Below the pieces are notes generated by a model that saw only the letters and a list, made by a program, of their open reading frames with translations, did not search any database and had not been told where the DNA came from. The translations under genes and the position numbers were made by a program. Shown here piece by piece: positions 45,977 through 58,089 of a stretch of 64,000 bases of DNA. Numbering within the stretch: the stretch's first letter is position 1; every line of letters begins with the position of its first letter. This stretch comes from a virus, in the IMG/VR virus record IMGVR_UViG_3300012933_000221, positions 7,911-71,910 of that record; one strand, 5' to 3'.

Positions 45977-46005
45977 TTGACACATCGGGTTTTTTCTTGT
46001 ATAAT
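45977..46005 (+). promoter_or_regulatory. Sigma70-like promoter (TTGACA-17-TATAAT) overlapping an upstream terminator hairpin
   Basis: CCCGGTG-ttgaca-CATCGGG hairpin plus a T-run, with the -35 hexamer in the loop. The conserved leader ATACATAGAAACAAAGAAAG follows. Confidence 0.5.
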
Positions 46006-46033
46006 TAATACATAGAAACAAAGAAAGTCCAAA

Positions 46034-46438
46034 ATGGAATTCCTAGTCAAGGGCAGTAAACGAAACAAGAAGTTTGTTGAAGCGATCCTTCCTAGTTTAA
46101 TTGATCAATTGAATTTGGCTAATAGCCGAAAAGCAGTAGTAGTCCAAATTGAAGACGACGGCACTGATAATATGGGTTCAACTATTCCTGTAGATGCACT
46201 TGACTCCTATATTGTTGTTATTAAACCACATCGTAAACTTAAAGATATTGGATTTACCCTTGCCCACGAAATGGTGCATGTGCGCCAAATGGCAAAGGGA
46301 ATTTTGAAGCCAGCTAAAAATGGCACGATTTGGGCAGGCAAACACTACGGTAAGAAAACCAAATATTTGGAAATGCCGTGGGAATTAGATGCTTTCGCCA
46401 AACAAGAAATTCTTTTTAGAAAAGCTATTGACGCATAA
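46034..46438 (+). CDS. SprT-like / HExxH zinc metallopeptidase-like protein (paralogue of 1391..1795)
   Basis: TLAHEMVHVRQM. Same 134-aa length as the paralogue. Confidence 0.4.
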   Translation: MEFLVKGSKRNKKFVEAILPSLIDQLNLANSRKAVVVQIEDDGTDNMGSTIPVDALDSYIVVIKPHRKLKDIGFTLAHEMVHVRQMAKGILKPAKNGTIWAGKHYGKKTKYLEMPWELDAFAKQEILFRKAIDA

Positions 46439-46456
46439 GTCAAAAGACGTTATAAT
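46428..46456 (+). promoter_or_regulatory. Sigma70-like promoter (TTGACG-17-TATAAT)
   Basis: The -35 lies within the end of the upstream CDS. The leader ACATACAGACACACAATAGAAAG precedes rIIA. Confidence 0.45.
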
Positions 46457-46491
46457 ACTAACATACAGACACACAATAGAAAGACTTTTAC

Positions 46492-48660
46492 ATGGCTATC
46501 ATTGCAAGCGCACCACAAGACCAAGCAGTTTTGAGCAACGTTGGTGAAATTGGCGAGTTCCGTATCCGCAACTCTGCTAAAGCATTCAGTATTTTGAGCT
46601 CGGGCTTGTATGCAAACAAGATCCGTGCTATCGTTCGCGAATTGTCCTGCAACGCAGTTGACTCGCACATCGCCGCAAGAAAACAAGAAACACCCTTTGA
46701 TGTCCATTTGCCTAACCAATTGGAACCTTGGTTTTCTATTCGCGACTACGGCACAGGATTGACACATGAACAAGTTACCCAAATCTACACCACTTACTTC
46801 GAGTCCACAAAAACCAACTCCAATGAGTTTATCGGAGCTCTCGGCCTCGGCTCAAAGAGTCCTTTCAGTTACACGGATAACTTTACCGTCACCGCCATCC
46901 GTGACGGTGTTAAAGGCATTTACTCCGCCTTCATCAACGGAGATGGAGTACCGAGTATTGCGCAAATGATGACTGAAGAAACTGACGAGCCTGCTGGCGT
47001 TGAAGTAAAGTTCAGCGTTAACGATCGTTATGACTTCGACAAGTTCCGTCAGGAAGCTCGATTTGTTTACAAGTATTTCAAGTTGCAACCTGTTGTGACT
47101 GGCTATGCTGATTTTAAAATCGAAACAGTTGAATACGAAAGCAAGGACATCGTTCCAGGCGTTCACCAAGCTAAGAGCGGACATCGTAGTGTTGCCATTA
47201 TGGGCAATATTGCTTATCCTATTGACATTCCGCAAGCTGACCAAACGTTGGGCGAACTGACTCGATTGCTCCAATGCAGTTTGGAAATCCACTTTGGTAT
47301 CGGTGAATTGGACTTCCAAGCGTCACGTGAAGGCTTGAGCTACATTCCACAAACTGTGAACGCTATTAAAGCCAAGCTGGAATCATTGAACGCAGTATTG
47401 GCTGGCAAGTTGGCTGAAGAAGCAGATGTGATCCCTAACTTGTGGGATCGTGCTATCTTCTTGCAAAAGCGTAAGGACAACTACTTGTGGGGTGCCGCAG
47501 TTAAGAAATATGTTGCCGACACTAATCTGGTAACATACGATGACGGCCGTTATGGTGGTACTAAGACTTTTAAGATGGGTGTTGAAGACCTGGCTAAAAA
47601 GTATAATATCACAGTTCGTGGTTTCAATTACAACAAGCACAGCAAAGCCTACAACAACAAGAAGAGTGAAATCGACTACGGTAACGTGCGTAATGCTAGT
47701 GGCAGCTACGACATGTTCCACTACTGGGGCTTCACTGTTAGCGACTATGTCAACTTTGTTGTAAACGACACTAAGATCGGTGCTGTTGAACGTGCTAAGT
47801 ATCACTACCGCGAAACTAAGCCAGATCAAAACAATATCTCTGTCTACGTGTTGGACCCTGCTGACAAGACTAAGCCAATGAAAACTGCGGCTTTCTTCAA
47901 AGCAATCCATAATCCAGGTGATAACAAGCGTTTTGTGGCGAGTGCGTTTTTGAAGAAAGAACGTGAAGCAGGCAACTTGAAGAACGTGACTATCCTGTCA
48001 TTGCAAGAACGCGGCTTCGGCGGCTACTATCGTCAGAAAGAGATGGTTTGGCGTGATGCAGGTAAAGCTGACTCGTTTGATAAGACCCATACTTTCTACT
48101 ACTTGCCTTTGAGCGGATTCAATCCGATCAGCAAAGTAGTTGGCGGCTTCAACGTTAAGAACTTGTTCACTGATTTGAAAGAGTGCGGTGTTGCTGGTTT
48201 GCGTAATCAAACTATCTACGGTGTGCGTAAAGGTGACATTGAGTTTATTAAAACTCAAAAGAACTGGGTAAACATCGAAGACCACATTGCTAAGGAGTTG
48301 TCGACGATTGACAATAAATTAGTTATGAGTTTGGTGTTGCAGGCTGTTGACAAATTTAACTTGATGTCGTATAATTACAGTATTGTCAGCGATGTAACGT
48401 ATGCTAACAGTCCTTATTTGGCGTTAGTAACACAGTTCAAAGACTTTAGCAAAGTTGAGTACAGTGAACAGAGCTTGAAAAACTTGTGCCGTATGTATGC
48501 TACTAACGTAACATTCAATCCACAAGCTACAGTAGATCAGTTTGTTGAACAATGCAAGGCAGTCGGAGAGCGTTATCCGTTGTTGGCTTACTTGCGCAGT
48601 GCTCCAAGCGCAGAAGTGGCAAATTATATTAACATGGTTGATACACAGAAAGGTATTTAA
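46492..48660 (+). CDS. rIIA: rIIA-like protein (GHKL ATPase N-terminal domain)
   Basis: Product of 722 aa. KAFSILSSGLYANKIRAIVRELSCNAVDSH (N box), IRDYGTGL (G1) and FIGALGLGSKSPFSYTDNFTVTA match the T4 rIIA N-terminal region as recalled. Confidence 0.65.
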   Translation: MAIIASAPQDQAVLSNVGEIGEFRIRNSAKAFSILSSGLYANKIRAIVRELSCNAVDSHIAARKQETPFDVHLPNQLEPWFSIRDYGTGLTHEQVTQIYTTYFESTKTNSNEFIGALGLGSKSPFSYTDNFTVTAIRDGVKGIYSAFINGDGVPSIAQMMTEETDEPAGVEVKFSVNDRYDFDKFRQEARFVYKYFKLQPVVTGYADFKIETVEYESKDIVPGVHQAKSGHRSVAIMGNIAYPIDIPQADQTLGELTRLLQCSLEIHFGIGELDFQASREGLSYIPQTVNAIKAKLESLNAVLAGKLAEEADVIPNLWDRAIFLQKRKDNYLWGAAVKKYVADTNLVTYDDGRYGGTKTFKMGVEDLAKKYNITVRGFNYNKHSKAYNNKKSEIDYGNVRNASGSYDMFHYWGFTVSDYVNFVVNDTKIGAVERAKYHYRETKPDQNNISVYVLDPADKTKPMKTAAFFKAIHNPGDNKRFVASAFLKKEREAGNLKNVTILSLQERGFGGYYRQKEMVWRDAGKADSFDKTHTFYYLPLSGFNPISKVVGGFNVKNLFTDLKECGVAGLRNQTIYGVRKGDIEFIKTQKNWVNIEDHIAKELSTIDNKLVMSLVLQAVDKFNLMSYNYSIVSDVTYANSPYLALVTQFKDFSKVEYSEQSLKNLCRMYATNVTFNPQATVDQFVEQCKAVGERYPLLAYLRSAPSAEVANYINMVDTQKGI

Positions 48661-48661
48661 A

Positions 48662-49684
48662 ATGAGTTATCCATATTTGATTCAGGGCAGTAACATTGTT
48701 GTCGTTATCGGCAATAAGAGTCACACAATTAGCAAGACCCACATTACCTATAATAAGGTACTGGAAGCTATCAAAGCTAACGATTGGGATTCGTTGCCCG
48801 ATATTATCGAACCTAAAAAGGTTGTGTTGAACTTTGGCAAGGGCAATGTGTCAATCCAAGGCGAAACATTGTTCTGGAAAGGCAAGGAACTTAACACTGG
48901 CTTGTCAGTGCGTATGATCCAAATGTTGCAAGAAGGCTTCCCTGTTGAACCTATGGTTAACTTCATGGAAAACTTGTACGCTAACCCTAGCAAACGTGCT
49001 GTCACTGAATTGTATGGCTTCTTGGAAAAGAACAACTTGCCAATCACTCCAGATGGTCACTTCTTGGCTTACAAGAAAGTGCGCAACAACTTCTTGGACA
49101 TCCACAGTGGTACAATGGATAACTCCGTTGGTACTGTTGTTGAAATGGAACGACACGAAGTTGATGACAACAAGGATGTAACTTGTTCAACTGGTTTGCA
49201 CTTCTGCGGTATGAGCTACTTGCCACACTTTGGTGGCGGTGATAGCCGTACAGTTATCGTTAAGATTAACCCAGCTGACGTTGTAAGCATTCCAAGTGAC
49301 TACAACGATGCTAAGGGTCGTGCATGCCGTTATGAAGTCATCGGTGAGTTGAACGTTAATCCAGAAGATGCGTTTACTAAGCCAGTGCAAGACAATGCTG
49401 TTGGTACTAAGACGTTTACTCGTCCAGTGCCAACTGGTCCAAAGACTGGTGACACTGTGTTCAAGCGTGGCTACACTGATGGCTTTACTTGTTCAGCTTA
49501 TGCTAACCCTTACAACTATGGTTCAAAGCAACATAAGGACTATAGCGAAGGATTTAACATGGGCCAAGGCGACTATGATGCTGGCAATGCAGAACGTTAT
49601 CGTTATGCGAAGACGCTGGCAGCTGGTTACGGTGCAGTGCCGCTAGATAATGGTGTTTGGCCTTTTCCTCCTAAATCTAATTAA
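48662..49684 (+). CDS. rIIB: rIIB-like protein
   Basis: CSTGLHFCGMSYLPHFGGGDSRTVIVKINPADVVSIPSDYNDAKGRACRYEV matches the conserved rIIB core. The gene immediately follows rIIA. Confidence 0.6.
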   Translation: MSYPYLIQGSNIVVVIGNKSHTISKTHITYNKVLEAIKANDWDSLPDIIEPKKVVLNFGKGNVSIQGETLFWKGKELNTGLSVRMIQMLQEGFPVEPMVNFMENLYANPSKRAVTELYGFLEKNNLPITPDGHFLAYKKVRNNFLDIHSGTMDNSVGTVVEMERHEVDDNKDVTCSTGLHFCGMSYLPHFGGGDSRTVIVKINPADVVSIPSDYNDAKGRACRYEVIGELNVNPEDAFTKPVQDNAVGTKTFTRPVPTGPKTGDTVFKRGYTDGFTCSAYANPYNYGSKQHKDYSEGFNMGQGDYDAGNAERYRYAKTLAAGYGAVPLDNGVWPFPPKSN

Positions 49685-49699
49685 TCAAGGAACATAAAA

Positions 49700-50548
49700 A
49701 TGTTTACTATTGTATTTTTTCTATTGCTGGCTATTGTAGCCGCTGGTGCTATTGCTCTGTTGCTTAAACAGACAGCATTAGGTATTTTGTCAGGACTTAT
49801 CATCTTCATCGGTGGTATTGGATTTAGTTCGTTCACTGTTATCAGTGCAGGACACACAGGTGTTATTGTTACTTTGGGTGAGGTTAATCCTGTAACACTT
49901 ACTGAAGGTTGGCACTTTGTTAATCCAGTAAGTCAAGTTAAAGACGTTAACGTTCAACTTCAGCGTACTCAACTAGCAGGTGCTAATGCATCCACTAAGG
50001 ACTTGCAGGTTGTACACACTGACATCGTTGTCCAGTATCGTTTACACGCAGACAAGGTACCGCACATCTACAAAGAGTATGGCTTGAACGTAGATGACAA
50101 GGTTCTTGGTCCAGCTATTAACGAAGCGTTCAAATCAATTACTGCCAAGTACACAAGTGAGGAATTGGTTACTAAGCGTCAAATTGTTTCAGATGAAATC
50201 CAAACTATGTTGAAAAGCAAAGTTGCTCCGTTTGACATTGATGTAAGTGGTATTAGTTTGGTTAACTTTGGCTTTAGTGCTGAATACCAAAAGGCCATTG
50301 AACAGAAGGTTATTGCTACACAACAAACAGCCAAAGCTGAACAAGACTTGGCACGTATCAAAGTTGAAGCTGCAAGCCGTATTGCTCAAGCCGAAGGTGA
50401 AGCCAAAGCTATCGCTATCCAGGCAAGTGCTATCCAAAGCCAAGGTGGACAGAACTATGTTCAACTGCAATGGATTGAAAAATGGGATGGTAAGTTGCCA
50501 ACTCATATGTTGCAAGGTGGACAAACGCTAATGAATATTGGCAAGTAA
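49700..50548 (+). CDS. SPFH/band-7 (HflK/C-, prohibitin-like) membrane protein
   Basis: N-terminal TM segment, then GHTGVIVTLGEVNPVTLTEGWHFVNPVSQVKDV SPFH core and a coiled-coil tail. Confidence 0.65.
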   Translation: MFTIVFFLLLAIVAAGAIALLLKQTALGILSGLIIFIGGIGFSSFTVISAGHTGVIVTLGEVNPVTLTEGWHFVNPVSQVKDVNVQLQRTQLAGANASTKDLQVVHTDIVVQYRLHADKVPHIYKEYGLNVDDKVLGPAINEAFKSITAKYTSEELVTKRQIVSDEIQTMLKSKVAPFDIDVSGISLVNFGFSAEYQKAIEQKVIATQQTAKAEQDLARIKVEAASRIAQAEGEAKAIAIQASAIQSQGGQNYVQLQWIEKWDGKLPTHMLQGGQTLMNIGK

Positions 50549-50566
50549 TCCAAACTAGTTTGGTTA

Positions 50567-50590
50567 GAAAGGGTCTTGACGGACCCTTTC
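50567..50590 (+). terminator. Terminator hairpin GAAAGGGTC / GACCCTTTC with the -35 hexamer in its loop
   Basis: Perfect 9-bp stem followed by GTTTTGTG. A CCAAACTAGTTTGG palindrome lies at 50550..50563. Confidence 0.5.
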
Positions 50591-50604
50591 GTTTTGTGTA
50601 TAAT
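50576..50604 (+). promoter_or_regulatory. Sigma70-like promoter (TTGACG-17-TATAAT) plus conserved leader
   Basis: Followed by ATACACATAGCAACAAAGAAAG. Confidence 0.5.
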
Positions 50605-50632
50605 ATACACATAGCAACAAAGAAAGCAGTCG

Positions 50633-50974
50633 ATGATTTTTGAACGAGCAGTATATCCAGAAGGCATCAAGCCCGGCGATTTCATTCAAACTACCAAACA
50701 TTTTGGCGACATCTTCTTTGAAGTTAAGAGTTGTTACAATTCAGGCGATTACTGGAGTATTACCTACATCACTTATGACAAGTATGGGTCAACTCCACGA
50801 ACTGAATCGGCCAACGGTGTAACTGCTATTCGCCGAGTTATTCCTGCTGAAATGGCAGTGCCAACTATCATGATGAAGCGCGAGCGTTTCAAAGCATCGT
50901 TTGGACAGTATGATCCATTCTACGGTTTTGCACCTGTGGGCACACCACTTCGCAACAAAGAAAGCGTATTATGA
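50633..50974 (+). CDS. Hypothetical early protein
   Basis: Product of 113 aa. Confidence 0.4.
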   Translation: MIFERAVYPEGIKPGDFIQTTKHFGDIFFEVKSCYNSGDYWSITYITYDKYGSTPRTESANGVTAIRRVIPAEMAVPTIMMKRERFKASFGQYDPFYGFAPVGTPLRNKESVL

Positions 50975-51300
50975 TTACCGCAAAAGAAGCCAAAGAACTG
51001 TACGACCAAAGTGGGCAAGAGGTTGCTGACTACTTGAAGCACAGTGTTGAGCAACGAGTGAAGGCTGCTGCCGAAGGTGGTAAGCGTCAAGTGTTTATCG
51101 ATATGGGTAGCGTGAAGCAGTTTGAGTACTTACAGAGCACTATTACACCTTTGCAAAAGGCTGTAGAATGGAGACTCAAAGAGTTGGGTTATCGTGTTGA
51201 GATTAGGTTAGACGGGGCATCTTATGTGCCACGAGGTCTAGCAGACGACAATGGCAACGGCCCGACAATTCAAAACTACGGCATTGTCATTAGTTGGTAA
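50971..51300 (+). CDS. Hypothetical early protein
   Basis: Product of 109 aa, coupled by ATGA. Confidence 0.4.
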   Translation: MITAKEAKELYDQSGQEVADYLKHSVEQRVKAAAEGGKRQVFIDMGSVKQFEYLQSTITPLQKAVEWRLKELGYRVEIRLDGASYVPRGLADDNGNGPTIQNYGIVISW

Positions 51301-51304
51301 AGAC

Positions 51305-51333
51305 TTGACAGCATACCAAAATCATTGTATAAT
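51305..51333 (+). promoter_or_regulatory. Sigma70-like promoter (TTGACA-17-TATAAT) plus conserved leader
   Basis: Followed by TAACACATAGCAACACACAGAAAG. Confidence 0.5.
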
Positions 51334-51363
51334 TAACACATAGCAACACACAGAAAGCATCAA

Positions 51364-51612
51364 ATGCGTAATATTGAAAACGTGGTAGACTTCGCAGACC
51401 TTTGTATTTTTGCACAAGAAATTGGCGTAGCACACTACAATGCGGCACACAGCATTTTGGACAAGGACTTTTATCCGTCAAGCGATATGGGTCCAAGTAT
51501 TGAACTTTACAAAGGTGAAGTAGCTCAATACACTGACAACACACAAGCAATCGAGATCCTGACCAGGTTCATGGAATCTAAGAACGTCGATTTTATCAAC
51601 ATCACAGCCTAA
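51364..51612 (+). CDS. Hypothetical early protein
   Basis: Product of 82 aa. Confidence 0.4.
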   Translation: MRNIENVVDFADLCIFAQEIGVAHYNAAHSILDKDFYPSSDMGPSIELYKGEVAQYTDNTQAIEILTRFMESKNVDFINITA

Positions 51613-52583: not shown

Positions 52584-52793
52584 ATGAACACCCGATTTAA
52601 ACAACTTGCTGAAAAGGCCGGCTATCATCCAGATGTATATGAACTATGCAAACCCGGCATGGAAAAGTTCGCCGAGTTGATTGTGCAGGAATGTGCTAAT
52701 TTTGTTGAGAACATATTTGATGACGATGGCGGACACGCCCCTTGTGAAGATTACGCAAAGGGGATTAAGAAACATTTCGGAGTTGAAGAATGA
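52584..52793 (+). CDS. Small hypothetical protein (paralogue A)
   Basis: KQLAEKAG ... FAELIVQECA ... IKKHFGVEE. Paralogous to 52987..53193. Confidence 0.45.
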   Translation: MNTRFKQLAEKAGYHPDVYELCKPGMEKFAELIVQECANFVENIFDDDGGHAPCEDYAKGIKKHFGVEE

Positions 52794-52990
52794 ACGAAGA
52801 ATTAAAACCGTTTTTAGCAGGATTTGACCTTGCTGGTCAGCGTTTGCCAAACGGAAAACTACAATCATATGGACTCCAAGAAGGTCTAATGGATGACTGG
52901 CCCGAAGAAGTTGAGTTGTTTGGCATTACATACGTGCTGGAAAAAGTTATCAAAGGCGAAGAAGGATACGAATCAGGAGTATATGTATGA
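52790..52990 (+). CDS. Small hypothetical protein
   Basis: Product of 66 aa, coupled on both sides. Confidence 0.4.
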   Translation: MNEELKPFLAGFDLAGQRLPNGKLQSYGLQEGLMDDWPEEVELFGITYVLEKVIKGEEGYESGVYV

Positions 52991-53193
52991 ACGAACGAAT
53001 TAAACAACTTGCCGAACAGGCTAAGGAGTATGCTCGTGGTTTCACTTACCAACATGAGGTTTTTGAGAAAAAGTTTGCTGAGTTGATTGTTCGGGAATGT
53101 GCTGAGGTTATAACAGAAACACGCTGGCATCTTCCACCAACACAACAACAAATTGCTATTGGTATCAAAGAACATTTCGGAGTGAAAGAATGA
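52987..53193 (+). CDS. Small hypothetical protein (paralogue B)
   Basis: KQLAEQAK ... FAELIVRECA ... IKEHFGVKE. Confidence 0.45.
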   Translation: MNERIKQLAEQAKEYARGFTYQHEVFEKKFAELIVRECAEVITETRWHLPPTQQQIAIGIKEHFGVKE

Positions 53194-53426
53194 TTACAGA
53201 TATTATCAATCGTGAGATCAAGATAGATGACTTTGTGGTATTCTACAGCAACATCTACCAAGTTAAAGCACTGGGCAAAGCTCGTGAAGGCGGCAGAGGA
53301 AATGTTAAAATGCTAATTTGGAACGGTGGACACACTTCACGCCCAGTAACCAAATTCTCAAAAGATATTGCCGTTTTGGATAAGAATCATGTGATGCTTT
53401 GGCAAATTAGCCAAGGTGCTGCTTGA
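53190..53426 (+). CDS. Small hypothetical protein
   Basis: Product of 78 aa. Confidence 0.4.
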   Translation: MITDIINREIKIDDFVVFYSNIYQVKALGKAREGGRGNVKMLIWNGGHTSRPVTKFSKDIAVLDKNHVMLWQISQGAA

Positions 53427-53451
53427 CATCTATTCGCAATCGCTGTATAAT
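53423..53451 (+). promoter_or_regulatory. Sigma70-like promoter (TTGACA-17-TATAAT) plus leader
   Basis: Followed by ACACACATCAACAACAAAGG. Confidence 0.45.
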
Positions 53452-53477
53452 ACACACATCAACAACAAAGGTTATCT

Positions 53478-54575
53478 ATGAAAAAGATTCTAGTAGCAGT
53501 CATGTTTGGCTTAATGGCTATTGCCGCACAAGCTGAGGCAACATTTGAACAAGTCCAAACGCTAATTCAGCAACGTGAATACCAGGCGGCTGCAAGTGGC
53601 TTGGAAACAATCATCCAAAATCATCCAAAGTCCGCTAAAGCGTTCTACGCAATGGCGCAAGCACAAGCAGGACTTGGCAATTTGGATAAGGCGCAAAAGG
53701 CATTAAACATTGCAACCGGCCTGAACCCAACACTAGACTTTGCTCCAGCTAGCTCTGTGGCAAGTTTGAAACAAGCAATTACTCCGCAAACTGCAAAGAT
53801 CGAAACCATTGAGGAATCACACTTCTGGCGAAACACAATTATGGCGCTGATCCTAGCATGTGCTATTGGTTTTGCATTCATGCTGTATATGCGTAAAGAA
53901 CAAGAAGCTGAAGAAAAAGCTGAAGCAGAACGTGAAGCTGAATTGGATCGTATCCGCACAGAGCGTGATGCAAAGCGTAAGCAAGAACACATGGAAATGC
54001 TTGCTCAACAAGATGCACAACGCAAAGCTGAATTGGCTGCTGAGGCTGCATTGAAGGCGCACAAGAATTACGGTCATGAACGTTTCGACCCAGCTAACCC
54101 TGACAAGTTAAAGACTGTTAAACAAGTGAAAGACGAAGCCGCAGAAAAGCAACGCTTGTTCCTTGAGGCAGAAGCACGTCGTGAACGTTTGCGAGCAGAA
54201 GCCGCAGAAGATGAAGCTCGCCGAGCACGTATGACATACTCTGCTCCAGCGCCAACTGTTGTGCATACTAACTCTGGCAGCAACGACATGTTGACTGGTG
54301 TGTTAATTGGTAACATGTTGAGTGGCTCACATCACGATCATAGCTCACATGATACCACTATCATCCGTGAAACTGTACGTGAAACTCCAAGTCGCTCTAG
54401 CACATGGGATGACACTCCAAGTAAGCCATCACGTAGCTCAAGCTGGGATGATGACAGTTCTTCTAGCTCAAGCAAGAGTAGCTCAAGCTGGTCAGACAGT
54501 TCAAGCTCATCTAGCTCAAGCTGGGACAGTGGTTCAAGCTCAAGCGATAGTTCAAGTTCATCAAGCTGGGATTAA
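53478..54575 (+). CDS. Membrane protein: signal peptide, TPR-like region, TM, charged coiled coil, Ser-rich SSSWD-repeat tail
   Basis: MKKILVAVMFGLMAIAAQA signal, a mid TM helix, a (KAEAEREAEL) charged helix and a C-terminal (S)nWD repeat. Confidence 0.5.
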   Translation: MKKILVAVMFGLMAIAAQAEATFEQVQTLIQQREYQAAASGLETIIQNHPKSAKAFYAMAQAQAGLGNLDKAQKALNIATGLNPTLDFAPASSVASLKQAITPQTAKIETIEESHFWRNTIMALILACAIGFAFMLYMRKEQEAEEKAEAEREAELDRIRTERDAKRKQEHMEMLAQQDAQRKAELAAEAALKAHKNYGHERFDPANPDKLKTVKQVKDEAAEKQRLFLEAEARRERLRAEAAEDEARRARMTYSAPAPTVVHTNSGSNDMLTGVLIGNMLSGSHHDHSSHDTTIIRETVRETPSRSSTWDDTPSKPSRSSSWDDDSSSSSSKSSSSWSDSSSSSSSSWDSGSSSSDSSSSSSWD

Positions 54576-54577
54576 TT

Positions 54578-54718
54578 ATGCTAATGTCTAACATTATCAT
54601 GCTGGTGTTTATGGCAATTTTTTTGGTGATGATATTCTTCATGTTTGATGATATTATCCTTAAAGGATACTTTGCTACTAAACTTCGTAAACGTTTTAAT
54701 GTAGAGAGTTTGAAATGA
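54578..54718 (+). CDS. Small TM peptide (46 aa)
   Basis: Hydrophobic core IIMLVFMAIFLVMIFFMF. Confidence 0.3.
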   Translation: MLMSNIIMLVFMAIFLVMIFFMFDDIILKGYFATKLRKRFNVESLK

Positions 54719-54825
54719 TTATAATTGTAGAATTTTTAATGGCATGCGGTTTGGTAGCTATTGTAGGTAGTTTAATCTACACAGGCTACCGTGCTGGCAA
54801 GGCAGAAAAGAAAGAAGAAAAATGA
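54715..54825 (+). CDS. Small TM peptide (36 aa)
   Basis: ATGA overlaps on both sides. Hydrophobic core FLMACGLVAIVGSLIY. Confidence 0.3.
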   Translation: MIIIVEFLMACGLVAIVGSLIYTGYRAGKAEKKEEK

Positions 54826-55004
54826 ACTCCATTGTGTTTGTTCTAATCGCACTAGTCAACAACGGGCACTTTAATAATGCTGTTGTTCCTACATTGGAAT
54901 TTAGTACTCGTGAAAAGTGTGAACGTGCTATTAACACATTTAAGAACGAAAGCGACGGACGTGACGGTAGTGTTCGTATGCGATGCGTGGCGATTGAAAA
55001 ATGA
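54822..55004 (+). CDS. Small hypothetical protein
   Basis: Product of 60 aa with a hydrophobic N-terminus. Confidence 0.35.
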   Translation: MNSIVFVLIALVNNGHFNNAVVPTLEFSTREKCERAINTFKNESDGRDGSVRMRCVAIEK

Positions 55005-55122
55005 TGTTAACTAAAATCTTGCTAGACAAAGACGACCGTATGCTACGAATCGGCTTTGGTAAGAACAAAGGCCTTTGGTTTGCTCGTATTGATTTGTGGT
55101 GCGTTGGTTATAGGATTTCAAA

Positions 55123-55371
55123 ATGAAAACAGTTTTAATGCTCGTTATGGCGAGTGCGGTTTTAGTAGGTTGTGACAATCGTCCACTGGATCAACGTGAA
55201 TACTCTAAGACAACTATGAGTAACATTCCGGAACTTGCGGATTGCGTCTACATTAGGATCGACGATGTGCGTATCATGCGCTGTCCGAAGAGCGACACTA
55301 CTGCAACTTACACAGTGCCGAGCGGCAAGTCACGTAAGACAGTGACAACTATTGTGAGCGACGACAAATGA
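55123..55371 (+). CDS. Lipoprotein
   Basis: Lipobox LVGC after a signal peptide. Product is 82 aa with 3 further Cys. Confidence 0.5.
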   Translation: MKTVLMLVMASAVLVGCDNRPLDQREYSKTTMSNIPELADCVYIRIDDVRIMRCPKSDTTATYTVPSGKSRKTVTTIVSDDK

Positions 55372-55862
55372 AACTGTTCGGACGCTCAAGCGGTTACTAC
55401 TTATTCTGGACTGGTGCAGTTTACCTGACAACAGGTATAACATTATCATTGTCCGAGTATAGCGAATATACTACATTCATTGCTCCTGTTTGGATTGCAG
55501 TATTAGGATTACCATTTGCAATTCCAGCATTTGGCAGATGGCTTAACATGGACATTACTTGGGACAAGAATATGTTTAATTGGTTTAGAACTTACAAAAA
55601 ATCCGAAGGCTCTGTTGCTGAGGATATGAATAAAGTTATGCACGATATGAATAACGTAGTTAAATTGCCAGTGCCGAAGTTAGTTCCGCCAGTACCAGAA
55701 GTAACTGAGCCAGCTAAAATCTTTTACCGTATTGGCGCAACTGATCAGAATCGTGTTGCCTTTAGTATGGGGCAAATGGAAATCACTATGAATCGAGAAG
55801 GATGCCAACAACTGATCGATCAGATAACAGTGTTCATGAACCAAATCAAGGACGAAGAATGA
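55368..55862 (+). CDS. Membrane protein
   Basis: Two N-terminal TM helices. Coupled to the lipoprotein gene. Confidence 0.45.
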   Translation: MKLFGRSSGYYLFWTGAVYLTTGITLSLSEYSEYTTFIAPVWIAVLGLPFAIPAFGRWLNMDITWDKNMFNWFRTYKKSEGSVAEDMNKVMHDMNNVVKLPVPKLVPPVPEVTEPAKIFYRIGATDQNRVAFSMGQMEITMNREGCQQLIDQITVFMNQIKDEE

Positions 55863-56149
55863 TTAGCCTAAACGTTAATCTACGCAACCCGTGGAGCCAA
55901 CAGTTTAAGAACTTGTGGAGTCATGTTTGGTATGTGCTTGAACACAAGTACCTTGAGCTAGAGTTTTACAAAGACTCTAGCATCCTATCATTTAATTTTA
56001 ATTGGACCTTACGCCAAAGTCATGCAGGGGTAGATGTTGAATTTGGCTTGCTTGGCTATTGTGTTCACGTTAACTTATATGACACTCGTCATTGGAATCA
56101 TAAAGAAGGCCGTTGGATGATTTACACAGAAGAACTAGGAGAACACTAA
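55859..56149 (+). CDS. Hypothetical protein
   Basis: The internal ATG overlapping the upstream stop is preferred over the ORF at 55802. Confidence 0.4.
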   Translation: MISLNVNLRNPWSQQFKNLWSHVWYVLEHKYLELEFYKDSSILSFNFNWTLRQSHAGVDVEFGLLGYCVHVNLYDTRHWNHKEGRWMIYTEELGEH

Positions 56150-56355
56150 TGAAAATTGAACTTAGTGATGAAGCGATCGAAGATATCATGTGTGCTACAC
56201 TTAACGAGCACATGAAGTACATGAAAAAGAATATTAAAGAACTCAAGAAGAAAAAAGGCGCTCTAGAACCGTATCAAGCACAGGACTTAGGCCATGACGT
56301 CAAGATGCTTGCAGCCATGGAAGAAGTATATGGATACTTCGGAGGTAACTTATGA
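56149..56355 (+). CDS. Hypothetical protein
   Basis: TAATG overlap. Product is 68 aa. Confidence 0.4.
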   Translation: MKIELSDEAIEDIMCATLNEHMKYMKKNIKELKKKKGALEPYQAQDLGHDVKMLAAMEEVYGYFGGNL

Positions 56356-56534
56356 GTAGCCTAGGTGTAATTCAAGAACAACCTCCTGAGTGTTGTGAAA
56401 TGTGTGGCAAGATCGATGAGTGTAGACCTTACGGACCAAACAATGAGAACATCTGTTTCGAATGTGCAACTACCAAGTGCGATCCTGCCCAAGTTGAAAA
56501 ACGCATGGCCCAGCACATTTTTGGGGAACAGTAA
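56352..56534 (+). CDS. Small Cys-rich (zinc-ribbon-like) protein
   Basis: CCEMCG ... CFECATTKC. Confidence 0.4.
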   Translation: MSSLGVIQEQPPECCEMCGKIDECRPYGPNNENICFECATTKCDPAQVEKRMAQHIFGEQ

Positions 56535-56851
56535 TGGGTACGCAAACTGACTACTTCAACAAGATCGGTTATAAGCACAAGTATGATATCGGTGACAGAG
56601 TCATCGGTACATACAAAAAGATCCCCGTAGTAGGTACAGTTGGAAACGATCGTTTGATTAATCATACTGATGGCCCAGAAATAACACTACACTTAGATCT
56701 GCCAATAAAGGTTGACAATGTGTATACATCGTTTATAATAGTTAAACATAAAGATATAAGGCGCTTGAAGTCTTTGGAAGACACTGAGCCTCTAAAACTC
56801 AAGGAAGCGGGTTCGATTCCCGCCAAGCGCACCAAACAAGGAAAGAAGTAA
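56534..56851 (+). CDS. Hypothetical protein (3' end overlaps a tRNA-like gene)
   Basis: Product of 105 aa. Confidence 0.4.
   Translation: MGTQTDYFNKIGYKHKYDIGDRVIGTYKKIPVVGTVGNDRLINHTDGPEITLHLDLPIKVDNVYTSFIIVKHKDIRRLKSLEDTEPLKLKEAGSIPAKRTKQGKK
56761..56834 (+). tRNA. Putative suppressor tRNA, anticodon CUA (reads UAG)
   Basis: Acceptor GCGCTTG/CAAGCGC + A + CCA. D-arm GTCT/AGAC (short loop). Anticodon stem TGAGC/ACTCA with loop CTCTAAA (U33, CUA, A37). T-arm GCGGG-TTCGATT-CCCGC. Confidence 0.45.
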
Positions 56852-56852
56852 T

Positions 56853-57080
56853 ATGGACATGGACAACGCCGCAGTATTTTTAGCTGGCACAATTTTATAC
56901 GCACTGGGATTTATTATCATATTAGCTGGCGTCATCGTTGCTAATAATCTGATTCACAAGTTCTGGAAATCATTCGGGTGGTCATTGTTCCCAGCATTCT
57001 TGCAACACGATGCTCCAAGATTCATGTCCCCAGAGGAAGCTGCCAGAGTTGCGCCTACTATGGATAAGCAGACTAAATAA
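56853..57080 (+). CDS. Small membrane protein
   Basis: Two hydrophobic helices in 75 aa. Confidence 0.4.
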   Translation: MDMDNAAVFLAGTILYALGFIIILAGVIVANNLIHKFWKSFGWSLFPAFLQHDAPRFMSPEEAARVAPTMDKQTK

Positions 57081-57158
57081 ATTTGTAGCAGGGTTGCTAC
57101 ACACCAACAGACTTTAAATTAACATGTGTTTAGTCTGTACACAGTAAAAGGAGATACC

Positions 57159-58055
57159 ATGATGTATCAATCAAAACTCGTTGCGAGTCTAAAAGCTAAC
57201 GGCAAAATTCTTCGCGAATTCAAAGACACAGTATACATTCCATTCGGCAGTGAATACTCATTCCTAATTAAAAACCTCCATACCCAACGAGCTTGCGTTA
57301 ATATCTTTATTGACGGTGAAAGCGTAGTTGAGGGTGGACTCGTAGTTAACGCAGGTCAAGAAATTGATCTAGAGCGTTATGTCAAAGAGGGTAGCCTTAA
57401 TGCAGGTAACAAGTTCAAGTTCATTGAACGTACATCTAGCATTGAGGAACACCGTGGAACTAAACTAGAAGACGGACTGGTGCGTATTGAGTTTCAATAC
57501 GAGAAGCAACCATTGCAAGACTGGTTTACTATGAATCGCGGATTCAACAATAATATCTACGCTAAGTCTAGCGAGTATCGCGGTGTTACTGACAAGTTTA
57601 GTGCAGGTGATGCAAATACTTGGTTACAGGCTAGTGGTTCTACTTATGCTACTACTAACGTTAGCCAAATGAATGTAGGCGGTGCGCTACGTGGTGTTGA
57701 CTACAGCAAAGGCGAGGCTGTTAAAGCTGCTGCCGCTAGTGCTATCGATCAAGTTGTGCCGCAGTCTATGAACGTACACGATGGCATGGCCACTATGGAT
57801 AGCTACAACGATGTCGGTATTACTGTTCCTGGCAGCAAGTCAACACAGAAGTTTCAGACAGTAACAATGGGTGTAATGGAAACTGAGAAGCATAGCATTG
57901 TTCTTAAACTGTTAGGCGAAACACCTGATAACAAGCCTGTACTAAAGCCTGTTACAGTTAAAGCTAAACAGAAGTGTGATACTTGCGGTAAGGTAAACAA
58001 AGCACACAGTAAGTTCTGTGTCGAGTGCGGAACTGCATTAGAAATCTTTGCGTAA
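57159..58055 (+). CDS. Hypothetical protein with a C-terminal zinc ribbon
   Basis: AAAGGAG SD before the ATG at 57159. C-terminus CDTCGKVNKAHSKFCVECG. Confidence 0.45.
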   Translation: MMYQSKLVASLKANGKILREFKDTVYIPFGSEYSFLIKNLHTQRACVNIFIDGESVVEGGLVVNAGQEIDLERYVKEGSLNAGNKFKFIERTSSIEEHRGTKLEDGLVRIEFQYEKQPLQDWFTMNRGFNNNIYAKSSEYRGVTDKFSAGDANTWLQASGSTYATTNVSQMNVGGALRGVDYSKGEAVKAAAASAIDQVVPQSMNVHDGMATMDSYNDVGITVPGSKSTQKFQTVTMGVMETEKHSIVLKLLGETPDNKPVLKPVTVKAKQKCDTCGKVNKAHSKFCVECGTALEIFA

Positions 58056-58059
58056 AGAG

Positions 58060-58089
58060 TTGACCGATGTGTCTATTTGAAAGTATAAT
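58060..58089 (+). promoter_or_regulatory. Sigma70-like promoter (TTGACC-18-TATAAT) flanked by an 11-bp inverted repeat GATGTGTCTAT/ATAGACACATC
   Basis: The inverted repeat spans the -10. Leader CTTAACACAGAAAG. Confidence 0.45.

What the first reader, a model, noticed from the sequence alone, without database searches (positions are those of the whole stretch)
45977..58089. Early-gene promoters share a conserved transcribed leader (ACACATAGCAACAAAGAAAG); several have hairpins or palindromes in or around the spacer
At least ten near-consensus TTGACA-17-TATAAT promoters are each followed within about 10 nt by a conserved A/C-rich leader ending in AGAAAG. Examples lie at 10730, 19733, 21105, 43292, 44792, 45977, 46428, 50576, 51305, 53423 and 58060. 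Leader variants are ACACATAGCAACAAAGAAAG, AACACATAGCAACACACAGAAAG, ATACATAGAAACAAAGAAAG and CTTAACACAGAAAG. Several carry perfect hairpins between or around the hexamers: CAGGACC-tccg-GGTCCTG at 44796..44813, TACGC-att-GCGTA at 21111..21123, and an 11-bp inverted repeat around the -10 at 58066..58100. Two others (45971..45990 and 50567..50590) place the -35 hexamer in the loop of the upstream terminator. This points to a dedicated early-transcription programme, with the leader possibly acting as a translational enhancer, RNase site or regulator-binding site.
Basis: seen in the sequence. Interest (0 to 1): 0.6.

Follow-up and report, generated by a model that had tools for sequence, protein, structure and literature searches.

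The report
Phage early promoter–terminator–leader cassettes (PeSL-type)
This stretch of an uncultured large phage carries about twenty compact expression cassettes (optional terminator hairpin, near-perfect host-type promoter, short conserved 5' leader, start codon) of a kind already described in T4-type phages as PeSLs, so it is real but mostly a new example of a known design.

Summary
The window has 10 perfect TTGACA-N16-18-TATAAT sites (0.05 expected). With one mismatch or fewer there are 20, all on the gene strand.

The shared "leader" has three parts:
- a conserved start region, TATAAT-N4-ACAT, with the start at the A of CAT, 7 nt after the -10;
- a short A-rich, G-poor linker;
- a ribosome-binding element, (A)GAAAG, about 6 nt before ATG.

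Only 5 of the 11 listed promoters carry the AGAAAG leader. Two are probably leaderless.

GAAAG is specific to promoter-proximal genes: 8 of 15 against 3 of 57 (p = 6.5e-5). Stable hairpins are about three times enriched at promoters. The two best terminators put the -35 hexamer in their loop.

The same promoter-plus-leader, TATAAT-N3-CACATAGCAAC(AAAGGAG), occurs in at least 119 viral stretches, hardly at all in 596 Gb of bacterial genomes, and in coliphage RB49. That matches the PeSL cassettes of T4-type phages (PMC2839356, PMC4122927).

Best reading: host sigma-70 early cassettes, in which the 5' leader part is the start and initial transcribed sequence and the 3' part is the Shine-Dalgarno. 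A dedicated leader-binding factor is possible but unsupported. I class it as a new member of a known kind, of moderate interest.

The parts
45966..46036 (+). Cassette. Terminator hairpin 45966-45993 with TTGACA (45977-45982) in its loop and its T-tract in the promoter spacer. -10 at 46000-46005. Predicted start near 46012. Leader ATAGAAACAAAGAAAGTCCAAA. ATG at 46034 (134-aa ORF with no homologue at this slot in relatives).
50567..50635 (+). Cassette. Terminator hairpin 50567-50590 (GAAAGGGTCT-TGAC-GGACCCTTTC, then GTTTTGTG) overlapping the -35 TTGACG (50576). -10 at 50599-50604. Leader with the exact 20-mer ACACATAGCAACAAAGAAAG at 50607-50626. ATG at 50633.
51305..51366 (+). Cassette. Perfect promoter, leader taacACATAGCAACACACAGAAAGcatcaa, ATG at 51364.
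46428..46494 (+). rIIA cassette. TTGACG-17-TATAAT, leader actaACATACAGACACACAATAGAAAGacttttac, ATG at 46492. The promoter and leader are conserved upstream of rIIA in the related phages that keep a recognisable promoter there.
58060..58120 (+). Cassette with an 18-nt spacer. An 11-bp inverted repeat (58066-58076 and 58088-58098) encloses the -10, and its right arm is the start region AGACACATC. Leader ...CTTAACACAGAAAG. ATG at 58118.
44792..44861 (+). Cassette of the AAA-ATPase gene. Perfect promoter with the hairpin ACAGGACC-tccg-GGTCCTGT in the spacer (-14.8 kcal/mol). Leader with the ribosome-binding element GAAAGA. ATG at 44859. Orthologous promoters in relatives carry a hairpin around the -10 instead.
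53423..53480 (+). Cassette. Perfect promoter whose -35 TGA is the stop codon of the upstream gene. Leader acacACATCAACAACAAAGGttatct. ATG at 53478 (TPR protein). Hairpin just upstream at 53387-53426.
50952..50973 (+). Promoter-less copy of the leader's 3' half (GCAACAAAGAAAG) plus cgtatt-ATG, in front of the internal gene 50971. Either a stand-alone ribosome-binding region or a relic of a cassette.
48347..48375 (+). Perfect promoter inside the 3' end of rIIA, about 280 nt upstream of rIIB (48662-49684). A near-consensus promoter lies at the same place in most related loci.
56712..56834 (+). Perfect promoter (16-nt spacer) followed about 15 nt after the predicted start by a tRNA with anticodon CUA (56761-56834).
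62646..62949 (+). Four tandem near-consensus promoters (62646, 62728, 62827, 62921), each followed by N4-ACAT. ACATAGCAA follows 62827. They lie upstream of the tRNA cluster that starts at 63611.
40079..40168 (+). Cassette with the classical layout. Terminator CCCGC-ttag-GCGGG plus TTTCTTT just upstream of the -35 (40113). TATACT as -10. Ribosome-binding element GAAGGAG. ATG at 40166. Follows the phage tmRNA gene.
40883..40978 (+). Cassette of the NMNAT-Nudix gene. TTGACT-17-TATAAT (the -35 TGA is the upstream stop codon). 58-nt leader taacACATAA... containing the hairpin GCG-ATAGA-CGC. Ribosome-binding element AGAAAGG. ATG at 40976.
43292..43376 (+). Weak promoter (2 mismatches) of the NAMPT gene with a spacer hairpin (-11.2 kcal/mol). 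Its leader has the same GCGATAGACGC hairpin. Ribosome-binding element AAAGGA. ATG at 43374. It has no AGAAAG leader.
28221..28311 (+). Perfect promoter inside the 3' end of the phage dnaK. The transcript would begin with the hairpin GTAGGGCGCCTTCGGGGCCCTAC (28256-28278, -15.7 kcal/mol). Ribosome-binding element AAGGAG. ATG at 28309 (Hsp20).
25345..25403 (+). Cassette of the DexA-like exonuclease. TTGACA-17-TATACT (the -35 TGA is the upstream stop codon). Leader ...TTTTAAAGAAAGaacttt. ATG at 25401.
21105..21167 (+). Perfect promoter with the spacer hairpin TACGC-att-GCGTA (21112-21124). Start region agtcACATGT. Ribosome-binding element TAGGAT. ATG at 21165.
19733..19768 (+). Perfect promoter (16-nt spacer) with the ATG 5 nt after the -10. 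Probably a leaderless mRNA (NT5C-like nucleotidase). The -35 TGA is the upstream stop codon.
10730..10768 (+). TTGACA-17-TATACT with the ATG 7 nt after the -10. Probably leaderless (PD-(D/E)XK nuclease). The -35 TGA is the upstream stop codon.

Best explanation
These are PeSL-type early expression cassettes of a large uncultured phage that carries rIIA and rIIB. Each unit is read by the host's sigma-70 RNA polymerase right after infection. A unit consists of five parts:
1. in about a third to a half of cases, a stem-loop placed upstream of, inside or across the promoter, which stops or attenuates transcripts arriving from the previous unit;
2. a near-consensus -35/-10 promoter with 17 ± 1 bp spacing;
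3. a conserved discriminator and start region, TATAAT-(a/t)nAC-AC-A(+1)-T-A, that fixes initiation at the A of CAT, 7 nt after the -10, followed by an A-rich, G-poor initial transcribed sequence;
4. a ribosome-binding element about 6 nt before the start codon. In this phage's clade it is mostly (A)GAAAG(G). In a much wider set of phages and in RB49 it is AAGGAG;
5. the ATG. The whole 5' UTR is only about 20-30 nt, or absent in leaderless variants.

The 'conserved leader' is therefore the start and initial transcribed sequence fused to a Shine-Dalgarno-like element, not a separate RNA device.

**Shown here:** the sequences, their statistics, their conservation in relatives, and the match to published PeSL anatomy.

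**Inferred:** the start-site position, early timing, terminator activity, and the role of the conserved start region in efficient initiation and escape from very tight consensus promoters. By analogy with RB49, it is also inferred that the repeated leader is a substrate for homologous recombination that shuffles genes.
For: **Promoters**
- 10 perfect sites against 0.05 expected.
- 20 sites on the gene strand against 0 on the other.

**Start region**
- C at -1 in 14 of 20 promoters, A at +1 in 15 of 20, T at +2 in 13 of 20.
- In 96 non-redundant promoters of related phages: a pyrimidine at -1 in 80 of 96, A at +1 in 69 of 96, T at +2 in 62 of 96.
- Among 773 distinct promoters, ORF-opening ATGs close to the -10 peak sharply at exactly 6 nt (42 of 73). 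That puts the start at the 7th nt, which is the A of CAT.

**Selection on the start region**
- In the rIIA promoters of 20 phages, mean pairwise identity is 0.31 in the spacer and 0.74 at -6 to +4.

**The 5' half of the leader is not about translation**
- The same ACACATAGCAAC follows promoters inside phage tRNA arrays.
- ACATAGCAA follows one of the tandem promoters upstream of the window's tRNA cluster.

**The 3' end is the ribosome-binding element**
- It sits about 6 nt before ATG, where other genes have AAGGAG.
- GAAAG precedes 8 of 15 promoter-proximal genes against 3 of 57 others, p = 6.5e-5. Relatives show 26 of 59 against 35 of 411.

**Hairpins**
- 7 of 21 promoters have a hairpin of -14 kcal/mol or lower, against 9.75% of random windows, p = 0.003.
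- The hairpins occupy all five positions described for PeSLs.
- The two best terminators in 44-64 kb overlap the -35. The same design recurs in 10 other promoters from other phage contigs.

**Wider distribution**
111 of 135 matches have a TTGACA-like -35 at 17 nt.
- In 596 Gb of bacterial genomes there were 21 hits, only 3 with a -35.

**RB49**
- The srd promoter reads TTGACA-17-AATAAT-acacACATACCAACTAAGGAG-ATG.
- There are 28 promoters on the gene strand against 0 on the other, with the same grammar.

**Published definition**
- PMC2839356 and PMC4122927 define PeSLs as a sigma-70 early promoter, a stem-loop in five possible positions, and a Shine-Dalgarno plus ATG, enriched in hyperplastic regions.
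- Gene content downstream of rIIB, and in the slot between the AAA-ATPase gene and rIIA, differs from all relatives.
Against: - There are no transcript data. The start sites, early timing and termination are all inferred.
- Only about half of the promoters have a notable hairpin, and only two hairpins have a clear T-tract.
- Hairpin enrichment is modest: p = 0.02 at -11 kcal/mol and p = 0.07 at -16 kcal/mol.
- The translation-initiation regions of these genes are no less structured than those of other genes, so the 'unstructured leader' idea gains no support.
- Purifying selection on the start region and concerted evolution by recombination cannot be cleanly separated.
- The restriction of GAAAG to promoter-proximal genes is not explained by promoter function alone.
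- The host is unknown. Whether AGAAAG pairs with the 16S 3' end depends on the tail: about -5 to -6 kcal/mol with ...CCUCCUUUCU-3' but only about -1 to -2 with the E. coli tail.
Confidence: 0.72

Rival explanations
1. The leader, and especially the AGAAAG-type ribosome-binding element found only on promoter-proximal genes, is a recognition site for a phage-encoded post-transcriptional regulator. Candidates would be a RegB-like endoribonuclease or a RegA-like translational repressor. Such a factor would switch the early mRNAs on or off as one class.
For: - GAAAG precedes 8 of 15 promoter-proximal genes but only 3 of 57 others.
- The same bias is seen in relatives.
- The type of ribosome-binding element is conserved gene by gene among orthologues: rIIA has AGAAAGG and the AAA-ATPase gene has GAAAGA.
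- A promoter-less copy of GCAACAAAGAAAG precedes the internal gene at 50971.
- Early leaders lack GGAG, whereas other genes use AAGGAG.
Against: - The 5' half of the leader also occurs on untranslated tRNA-array transcripts.
- The middle of orthologous leaders varies in sequence and length.
- In the much larger set of phages carrying the same start region, the element is an ordinary AAGGAG.
- No RegA homologue is present in the window. Only RB49 RegA and a few other RB49 proteins were tested, and the rest of the genome was not seen.
- No Rfam family matches.
Confidence: 0.12
2. The shared leader has no sequence-specific function of its own. It is kept similar between cassettes by repeated homologous recombination or gene conversion, or by recent duplication, as a by-product of PeSL-type shuffling.
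For: - In RB49 and phi1, crossovers between PeSLs were mapped between the -10 and the ATG (PMC2839356).
- The window has a 13-nt leader fragment without a promoter at 50952-50964.
- Genes next to the cassettes differ from those in all relatives.
- Leaders 50576 and 51305 are near-identical, while their spacers and upstream sequences are unrelated.
Against: - Orthologous rIIA promoters across 20 phages (rIIA 52-71% identical) keep positions -6 to +4 at 0.74 pairwise identity, while the spacer has drifted to 0.31.
- The same start grammar is present in E. coli phage RB49, and the same start position in leaderless variants.
- Ribosome-binding element types are gene-specific rather than homogenised within a genome.
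Confidence: 0.14
3. The pattern is a chance or compositional effect of an A-rich genome.
For: The genome is A-rich on the + strand (A = 0.32). Outside -6 to +2, only composition is shared across all 20 promoters.
Against: - Perfect promoters: 10 against 0.05 expected.
- The 20-mer: 3 against 0.02 expected.
- ACATAGCAA occurs 3 times on the + strand, always right after a -10, and 0 times on the - strand.
- Strand asymmetry of 20 to 0.
- Conservation in many other phages.
Confidence: 0.01

Closest known systems
PeSL (promoter-early stem-loop) cassettes of coliphages RB49 and phi1 (Arbiol, Comeau, Kutateladze, Adamia, Krisch 2010, PMC2839356)
   Same: - Near-perfect TTGACA-N17-TATAAT promoters repeated many times on the gene strand.
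- Stem-loops between the hexamers, overlapping the -35 or the -10, upstream of the -35, or just before the start. All five positions are seen here.
- A Shine-Dalgarno element and ATG at the 3' end.
- Location next to variable small ORFs.
- RB49 leaders read acacACATACCAACTAAGGAG and gcacACATCGACAACAAAGGAG, which is the same grammar as here.
   Different: - The phage here is uncultured and only distantly related (rIIA 35% identical to RB49).
- The ribosome-binding element is mostly (A)GAAAG instead of AAGGAG.
- Stems are not the GGGG...CCCC type.
- No marked AT-rich block upstream of the -35.
- The promoters overlap the ends of upstream genes. At 6 sites the TGA of TTGACA is the upstream stop codon.
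- Promoter, terminator and mini-circle activity are untested here.
PeSLs of vibriophages nt-1 and KVP40 (Comeau, Arbiol, Krisch 2014, PMC4122927)
   Same: - The stem-loop consensus A3-4G3-loop-C3T3-4 matches GAAAGGGTC...GACCCTTTC (50567-50590) and the related AAGGGG...CCCCTT hairpins in relatives.
- A large genome at about 42% GC with many tRNAs and NAD-salvage genes. That KVP40 carries such NAD-salvage genes is from my own knowledge.
- Cassettes are dense in variable regions.
   Different: - The nt-1/KVP40 promoters are degenerate (TTGYVH...TAWWAT), whereas these are near-consensus.
- In those phages the stem-loop sits just upstream of the promoter. Here it is often inside the promoter.
Early promoters of T4-like phages (Nolan et al. 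2006, PMC1524935)
   Same: - Host sigma-70-type promoters 5' to early-gene orthologues, novel ORFs and tRNA genes.
- A preference for C at -3 to -1 was reported for RB69, RB49 and 44RR.
   Different: - T4 itself uses GTTTAC at the -35 and has an A-rich UP element.
- No extended transcribed consensus was described.
Strong coliphage early promoters whose output depends on the initial transcribed sequence, such as T5 N25 (PMC12464699). Lambda PL and T7 A1 also start with AT (from my own knowledge).
   Same: - Very tight promoters that start with A-T.
- For T5 N25, escape is rate-limiting and is modulated by the first ~20 transcribed bases. This is a plausible reason for a conserved start region here.
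   Different: - The sequences are not homologous.
- The escape kinetics of the cassettes here are unknown.

Membership tests
PeSL cassette (T4-type phages) | Near-consensus sigma-70 early promoter (-35, 17 ± 1 bp, -10) on the gene strand | tested here: met
   10 perfect sites against 0.05 expected. 20 sites with one mismatch or fewer on the + strand and 0 on the - strand.
PeSL cassette (T4-type phages) | Stable stem-loop next to or inside the promoter, in any of five positions, able to act as terminator or attenuator | tested here: met
   10 of 21 promoters have a hairpin of -11 kcal/mol or lower and 7 of 21 of -14 or lower, against 24.8% and 9.75% of 400 random windows (p = 0.019 and 0.003). 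All five positions are seen. The two hairpins with T-tracts are the top terminator hits. Roughly half of the promoters have no notable hairpin.
PeSL cassette (T4-type phages) | Shine-Dalgarno element and start codon at the 3' end, a short distance from the -10 | tested here: met
   Median predicted 5' UTR is 22 nt. A ribosome-binding element lies about 6 nt before ATG.
PeSL cassette (T4-type phages) | [quoted passage not shown] | tested here: not met
   AT fraction of the 20 nt upstream is 0.62, against a window mean of 0.58 (sd 0.10). Many promoters overlap the coding sequence of the upstream gene.
PeSL cassette (T4-type phages) | Many copies per genome, concentrated in gene-content-variable (hyperplastic) regions next to ORFans | tested here: met
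   13 sites with one mismatch or fewer lie in 44-63 kb. Most genes between 49.7 and 58.7 kb, and gene 46034, have no homologue in the 17 related loci compared, whereas rIIA and rIIB are conserved in all of them.
PeSL cassette (T4-type phages) | Recombination between cassettes (mini-circles, or indels bounded by cassettes) | not testable with these tools
   Indirect evidence only: a promoter-less 13-nt leader copy at 50952-50964 and a replaced gene between the AAA-ATPase gene and rIIA.
PeSL cassette (T4-type phages) | Demonstrated promoter and terminator activity | not testable with these tools
   This needs reporter or run-off assays. It was shown only for phi1 and RB49 (PMC2839356).
PeSL cassette (T4-type phages) | The carrier is a T4-type phage | tested here: inconclusive
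   rIIA, rIIB and DexA homologues are present, with rIIA 35% identical to RB49. No core replication or virion genes lie in the window, and there is no close cultured relative.
Shine-Dalgarno element | Complementarity to the 3' end of the host 16S rRNA at a suitable distance from the start codon | tested here: inconclusive
   The spacing is right (about 6 nt). AGAAAG pairs at -4.8 to -6.0 kcal/mol with a ...CCUCCUUUCU-3' tail but only -0.9 to -1.8 with the E. coli tail. The host is unknown. A betaproteobacterial-type tmRNA in the phage hints at a long-tail host; that this lineage has such a tail is my own knowledge.
Leaderless mRNA | The transcript starts at the A of the start codon | tested here: inconclusive
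   ATG lies exactly 6 nt after the -10 in 42 promoters of the phage set. The two window cases are at 5 and 7 nt. No 5'-end data exist.
Known RNA families (Rfam) | A match to a curated leader, riboswitch or sRNA model | tested here: not met
   Only a tmRNA and tRNAs were found in the window. Nothing was found in 40850-43420 at E ≤ 1.

The most novel reading that the evidence does not exclude
The (A)GAAAG element is a second, early-specific class of translation signal. It is confined to the first gene after each early promoter and conserved at orthologous genes across a clade of uncultured large phages. It lacks the GGAG core that the phage's other genes use. A phage factor (a nuclease, a repressor or a ribosome modifier) or the host's 16S 3' tail would tell the two classes apart. 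That would give the phage a translational early/late switch layered on the transcriptional one, the mirror image of T4 RegB, which destroys GGAG-containing early leaders.
Probability: 0.1. Interest if true: 0.65.

Novelty: new member of a known kind. Interest (0 to 1): 0.35.

Why it matters
- The finding extends PeSL-type promoter-terminator-leader cassettes, so far described only in cultured T4-type phages of enterics and vibrios, to a large clade of uncultured phages with contigs up to about 350 kb.
- One start and leader sequence, TATAAT-N3-CACATAGCAAC-AAAGGAG, is shared by well over a hundred viral stretches and is nearly absent from bacterial genomes.
- That sequence is a ready-made signature for calling early genes, predicting transcription starts and finding leaderless genes in metagenomic phage genomes.
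- It is also a natural set of very compact, insulated, strong expression cassettes.
- It does not open a new kind of biology unless the early-specific GAAAG element proves to be a regulatory class of its own.

Tried and rejected
- **Close cultured relative.** Megablast of 45-53 kb against 50,697 phage records found nothing. BLAST of the window's own cassette gave only marginal hits.
- **Host origin of the motif.** The scan of 596 Gb of bacterial and archaeal genomes gave 21 hits. Only 3 had a -35, and two of those lie in one Haliscomenobacter MAG; one of them matches viral locus L067 closely. The promoter plus leader was therefore not copied from host promoters that are on record.
- **rRNA-promoter mimicry.** A sub-family with a boxA-like downstream sequence turned out to sit inside phage tRNA arrays, not rRNA operons.
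- **Unstructured leader.** Folding energy of -22..+18 does not differ from that of other genes (-2.0 against -2.75 kcal/mol, p = 0.40). The 'A/C-rich' description is mainly A-rich and G-poor.
- **AT-rich UP region.** Not marked.
- **Paralogy of genes 50633 and 50971**, as an explanation for the internal leader copy: no similarity.
- **Rfam.** Nothing on the leaders.
- **RegA, ModB, Srd, RpbA and gp55 homologues of RB49** in the window: none.
- **NAD-capping promoter consensus.** As I recall it, the consensus has a purine at -1 and S at +2. That does not fit C at -1 and T at +2, so I did not pursue it.
- **Literature search for the sequence itself.** It returned only unrelated primer hits.

Full report
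**What the window is.** The 64-kb window is a phage sequence with no close cultured relative. Megablast of 45-53 kb against 50,697 phage records found nothing. Ninety of 100 greedy ORF calls are on the + strand. Recognisable genes include:
- rIIA (46492-48660; best tblastn hit 30% identity to Xanthomonas phage XacN1, then to Aeromonas T4-like phages) and rIIB (48662-49684);
- NAMPT, an AAA ATPase and a Band-7 protein;
- NrdA and NrdB, a DnaK homologue, and Hsp20, a DexA-like exonuclease and an NMNAT-Nudix protein;
- a permuted betaproteobacterial-type tmRNA and several tRNAs.

Thirty-seven related loci carry rIIA at 46-78% identity. They come from IMG/VR contigs of up to 300 kb.

**Check of the observation: promoters.** The promoters are real and far beyond chance.
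- There are 10 perfect TTGACA-N16-18-TATAAT sites against 0.05 expected.
- With one mismatch or fewer there are 20 sites on the + strand and none on the - strand.
43292 has two mismatches.

**Check of the observation: leader.** The leader is real but applies to a subset.
- The 20-mer has 3 matches at 3 mismatches or fewer, against 0.02 expected.
- A leader ending in AGAAAG follows five of the listed promoters: 45977, 46428, 50576, 51305 and 58060.
- GAAAG also follows 44792 and the unlisted 25345 and 40883.
- 10730 and 19733 have the ATG 7 and 5 nt after the -10, so they have no leader.
- 21105, 43292 and 53423 have different leaders.

**Check of the observation: hairpins.** The two terminators that hold the -35 hexamer in their loop are the two best terminator-like sites in 44-64 kb.

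**Anatomy of the 'leader'.** I aligned the 20 promoters on the -10. Position-specific conservation stops at about +2: A-rich at -6 to -4, C at -1 (14 of 20), A at +1 (15 of 20) and T at +2 (13 of 20). Beyond that only an A-rich, G-poor composition is shared. In 96 non-redundant promoters of the relatives the same three positions stand out: a pyrimidine at -1 in 80 of 96, A at +1 in 69 of 96 and T at +2 in 62 of 96.

The 3' end of the leader, (A)GAAAG, ends about 6 nt before the ATG. That is exactly where the phage's other genes have (A/T)AAGGA(G). The leader therefore breaks down into four pieces:
1. the discriminator and start site;
2. a short initial transcribed stretch;
3. a ribosome-binding element;
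4. a spacer.

Predicted 5' UTRs are short, with a median of 22 nt.

**Where transcription probably starts.** No transcript data exist, but comparison gives a sharp answer. Among 773 distinct consensus promoters in the window and the fetched phage loci, long-ORF-opening ATGs that lie within 15 nt of the -10 pile up at exactly 6 nt (42 of 73). Many of these read TATAAT-acacac-ATG. The A of such an ATG occupies the same position as the A of ACACAT in the leadered cassettes. I take this as good indirect evidence for three things: initiation is at the 7th nt after the -10, the family uses leaderless mRNAs, and the conserved CAT is the start site.

**Is the start region under selection?** The rIIA promoter is retained in 20 phages. 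Its 17-nt spacer has drifted to 0.31 mean pairwise identity, which is essentially random. Positions -6 to +4 stay at 0.74, with T at +2 invariant. After about +8 the orthologous leaders vary in sequence and length but remain A/C-rich, and they end in AGAAAGG. Selection therefore acts on the start region and on the ribosome-binding element, not on the leader as one sequence block.

- It gave 135 matches, 108 of them distinct. 111 of the 135 have a TTGACA-like hexamer at exactly 17 nt.
- Most continue ...CAACAAAGGAGc-N5-7-ATG.
- One sub-family continues into a small hairpin and lies inside phage tRNA arrays with dozens of tRNAs.
- In the window, ACATAGCAA occurs three times, each right after a -10. 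One of these is in the tandem promoters upstream of the tRNA cluster.

The same initial transcribed sequence thus heads both translated and untranslated transcripts. That points to a role in initiation, promoter escape or 5'-end stability rather than ribosome recruitment.

The same pattern found only 21 matches in 596 Gb of bacterial and archaeal genomes, and 3 of them had a -35. Two of those 3 lie in one MAG, and one of them matches viral locus L067 closely. The motif is therefore phage-borne and not copied from known host promoters.

**The ribosome-binding element.** GAAAG lies within -18 to -3 of 8 of 15 promoter-proximal genes but only 3 of 57 other ATG genes (Fisher p = 6.5e-5). Crude gene calls in the relatives give 26 of 59 against 35 of 411 (orthologues are counted repeatedly, so that p-value is inflated).

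The element type is gene-specific and conserved among orthologues: AGAAAGG for rIIA and GAAAGA for the AAA-ATPase gene.

AGAAAG would pair at -4.8 to -6.0 kcal/mol with a 16S tail ending ...CCUCCUUUCU-3', but only at -0.9 to -1.8 with the E. coli tail. The AAGGAG of other genes pairs at -7.5 to -9.3 with either tail. The host is unknown. The phage's betaproteobacterial-type tmRNA hints at a lineage which, to my knowledge, has the long tail. In either case the first gene after each early promoter has a weaker, GGAG-free element than internal genes.

This restriction to promoter-proximal genes is the one feature that the simple promoter explanation does not cover. Two readings are possible: the element rides along with the cassette, or it marks a regulatory class (see the rival and the novel case).

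A promoter-less copy, GCAACAAAGAAAG-cgtatt-ATG, lies in front of the internal gene 50971. The flanking genes are not paralogues. This copy fits either a stand-alone ribosome-binding region or a cassette remnant.

**Hairpins.** For each of 21 promoters I took the best single hairpin between -40 and +25.
- 10 are at -11 kcal/mol or lower and 7 at -14 or lower. In 400 random windows of equal size the fractions are 24.8% and 9.75% (p = 0.019 and 0.003).
- They occupy every position relative to the promoter:
  - upstream of the -35: 40113, 53423;
  - across the -35: 45977, 50576;
  - between the hexamers: 21105, 43292, 44792;
  - around the -10: 58060;
  - at the start of the transcript: 28221.
- At 45966-45993 and 50567-50590 the loop is TGAC of the -35 hexamer and the T-tract lies in the spacer. 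A transcript coming from upstream would end about 10 nt before the -10.
- The same design recurs in ten further promoters from other contigs.
- In orthologues of the AAA-ATPase promoter the hairpin encloses the -10, with the arms gtatgtgtct and agacacatac. The arms change together, or through G·T pairs. In the window the hairpin of that same gene sits in the spacer. The hairpin is retained while its position moves, as expected for an insulator of read-through transcription.

**Comparison with what is known.** Arbiol et al. (PMC2839356) described PeSLs in coliphages RB49 and phi1, and Comeau et al. (PMC4122927) extended them.
- PeSLs are repeated cassettes with near-perfect TTGACA-N17-TATAAT promoters, a Shine-Dalgarno element and an ATG at the 3' end.
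- The stem-loop can lie between the boxes, overlap either box, lie upstream of the -35, or lie just before the start.
- Promoter and terminator function were shown experimentally.
- The cassettes are enriched in hyperplastic regions, and crossovers between cassettes were mapped between the -10 and the ATG.

That is the anatomy found here. The link is also direct at sequence level.
- A consensus leader query hit intergenic sites in RB49, phi1, JSE and other Escherichia phages listed with them. E-values were borderline, 3e-2 to 3e-3.
- The RB49 srd promoter reads TTGACA-17-AATAAT-acacACATACCAACTAAGGAG-aatcaatt-ATG.
- RB49's first 50 kb has 28 consensus promoters on the gene strand and none on the other. 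They show C at -1, A at +1, T at +2, an A/C-rich stretch and AAGGAG.
- Nolan et al. (PMC1524935) had noted a preference for C at -3 to -1 in RB49-type early promoters, early promoters 5' to tRNA genes, and agreement of the RB49 consensus with 5'-end mapping.
- The stem consensus reported for nt-1/KVP40 PeSLs, A3-4G3-loop-C3T3-4, matches 50567-50590 and several hairpins in relatives.
- Consistent with the hyperplastic-region association, rIIA and rIIB are conserved in all 17 relatives compared. The cassette-flanked gene between the AAA-ATPase gene and rIIA, and most genes between 49.7 and 58.7 kb, have no counterpart there.

One PeSL feature is not met: the region upstream of the -35 is not notably AT-rich. 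The reason is that these promoters overlap the ends of upstream genes. At six promoters the TGA inside TTGACA is the stop codon of the upstream gene.

**Mechanism, with what is shown and what is inferred.**
- Shown: the sequence architecture, its statistics, its conservation pattern, and its near-identity in grammar to experimentally characterised PeSLs.
- Inferred: host sigma-70 holoenzyme starts at the A of CAT.
- Inferred: the conserved discriminator and first about 8-12 transcribed bases are kept because very tight consensus promoters are limited by escape. Escape from such promoters is known to depend on the initial transcribed sequence, as in T5 N25 (abstract of PMC12464699, seen).
- Inferred: the hairpins terminate or attenuate upstream transcripts, so each unit is insulated.
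- Inferred by analogy with RB49: the repeated 20-60 bp of homology allows recombination that swaps the genes between cassettes.

**Verdict.** The finding is genuine and statistically solid. It is a new occurrence of a known kind of element. It adds some features not spelled out before:
- a start and leader consensus shared by well over a hundred environmental phage stretches;
- terminators with the -35 in their loop;
- stop codons embedded in the -35 hexamer;
- frequent leaderless variants;
- a GAAAG-type ribosome-binding element specific to promoter-proximal genes.

I score interest at 0.35.

Noticed in passing
window 56761-56834 (promoter at 56712): A tRNA with anticodon CUA, an amber-suppressor type, with an encoded CCA end. 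ARAGORN calls it 'tRNA-Pyl' and Rfam scores it as tRNA at 47 bits. It lies about 15 nt after the predicted start of a perfect promoter and overlaps a 105-aa ORF call. TAG is the stop codon of only 2 of 87 called genes (TAA 62, TGA 23). This may hint at TAG read-through or recoding elsewhere in the genome.
   Followed up: partly
window 40935-40945 and 43335-43345; L021 near 1714 and 3018; L022 near 1452: The 5' leaders of the two NAD-salvage genes (NMNAT-Nudix at 40976 and NAMPT at 43374) both contain the identical hairpin GCG-ATAGA-CGC. Relatives keep it. L022 has CCACTAG-ATAGA-CTGGTGG, with the same loop and compensated stem changes. There is no Rfam match at E ≤ 1. It may be a shared cis-regulatory element for phage NAD salvage.
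   Followed up: partly
window 10753-10768 and 19755-19768; many loci: Probable leaderless mRNAs. In the phage set, 42 promoters have a long-ORF ATG exactly 6 nt after the -10, often as TATAAT-acacac-ATG. The two window cases are at 7 and 5 nt.
   Followed up: partly
window 10730, 19733, 21105, 25345, 40883, 53423: At six promoters the TGA inside the -35 hexamer TTGACA is the stop codon of the upstream gene. At 28221 and 46428 the upstream stop codon lies inside the promoter. The packing is extremely tight.
   Followed up: yes
window 39683-40072: A phage-encoded permuted (two-piece) tmRNA of the betaproteobacterial type: Rfam beta_tmRNA at 111 bits and tmRNA_permuted at 127 bits. ARAGORN gives the tag peptide as DAEFALAA. 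It is followed by a terminator and by promoter 40113. It is a possible clue to the host.
   Followed up: partly
window 62646-62949; L016 11249/11332; L019 11717/11795: Tandem arrays of near-consensus promoters 80-100 bp apart, four of them in the window, upstream of the tRNA cluster that starts at 63611. Relatives have similar tandem pairs.
   Followed up: partly
window 48347-48375: A perfect promoter inside the 3' end of rIIA, about 280 nt before rIIB. A near-consensus promoter lies at the same place in most related loci despite being in coding sequence.
   Followed up: partly
window 26342-28728: The phage encodes a full-length DnaK (about 68% identical to bacterial DnaK sequences present in phage records) followed by an Hsp20. 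The Hsp20 transcript would start with a strong 5' hairpin (28256-28278).
   Followed up: partly
L039, L047, L074, L134, L148, L156: Viral contigs with very large tRNA arrays. Rfam reported 160 matches across these six loci (68 kb in all), and those listed were all tRNAs. The arrays are interspersed with the same consensus promoter, followed by ACACATAGCAACAAACGATAGAGTCAGTTGC, a 5' hairpin.
   Followed up: partly
window 40166 and 40209-40886: The ATG with a good GAAGGAG element right after promoter 40113 is in a different frame from the long HD-domain ORF, which was called from a TTG at 40209. The true start or starts here are unclear.
   Followed up: no
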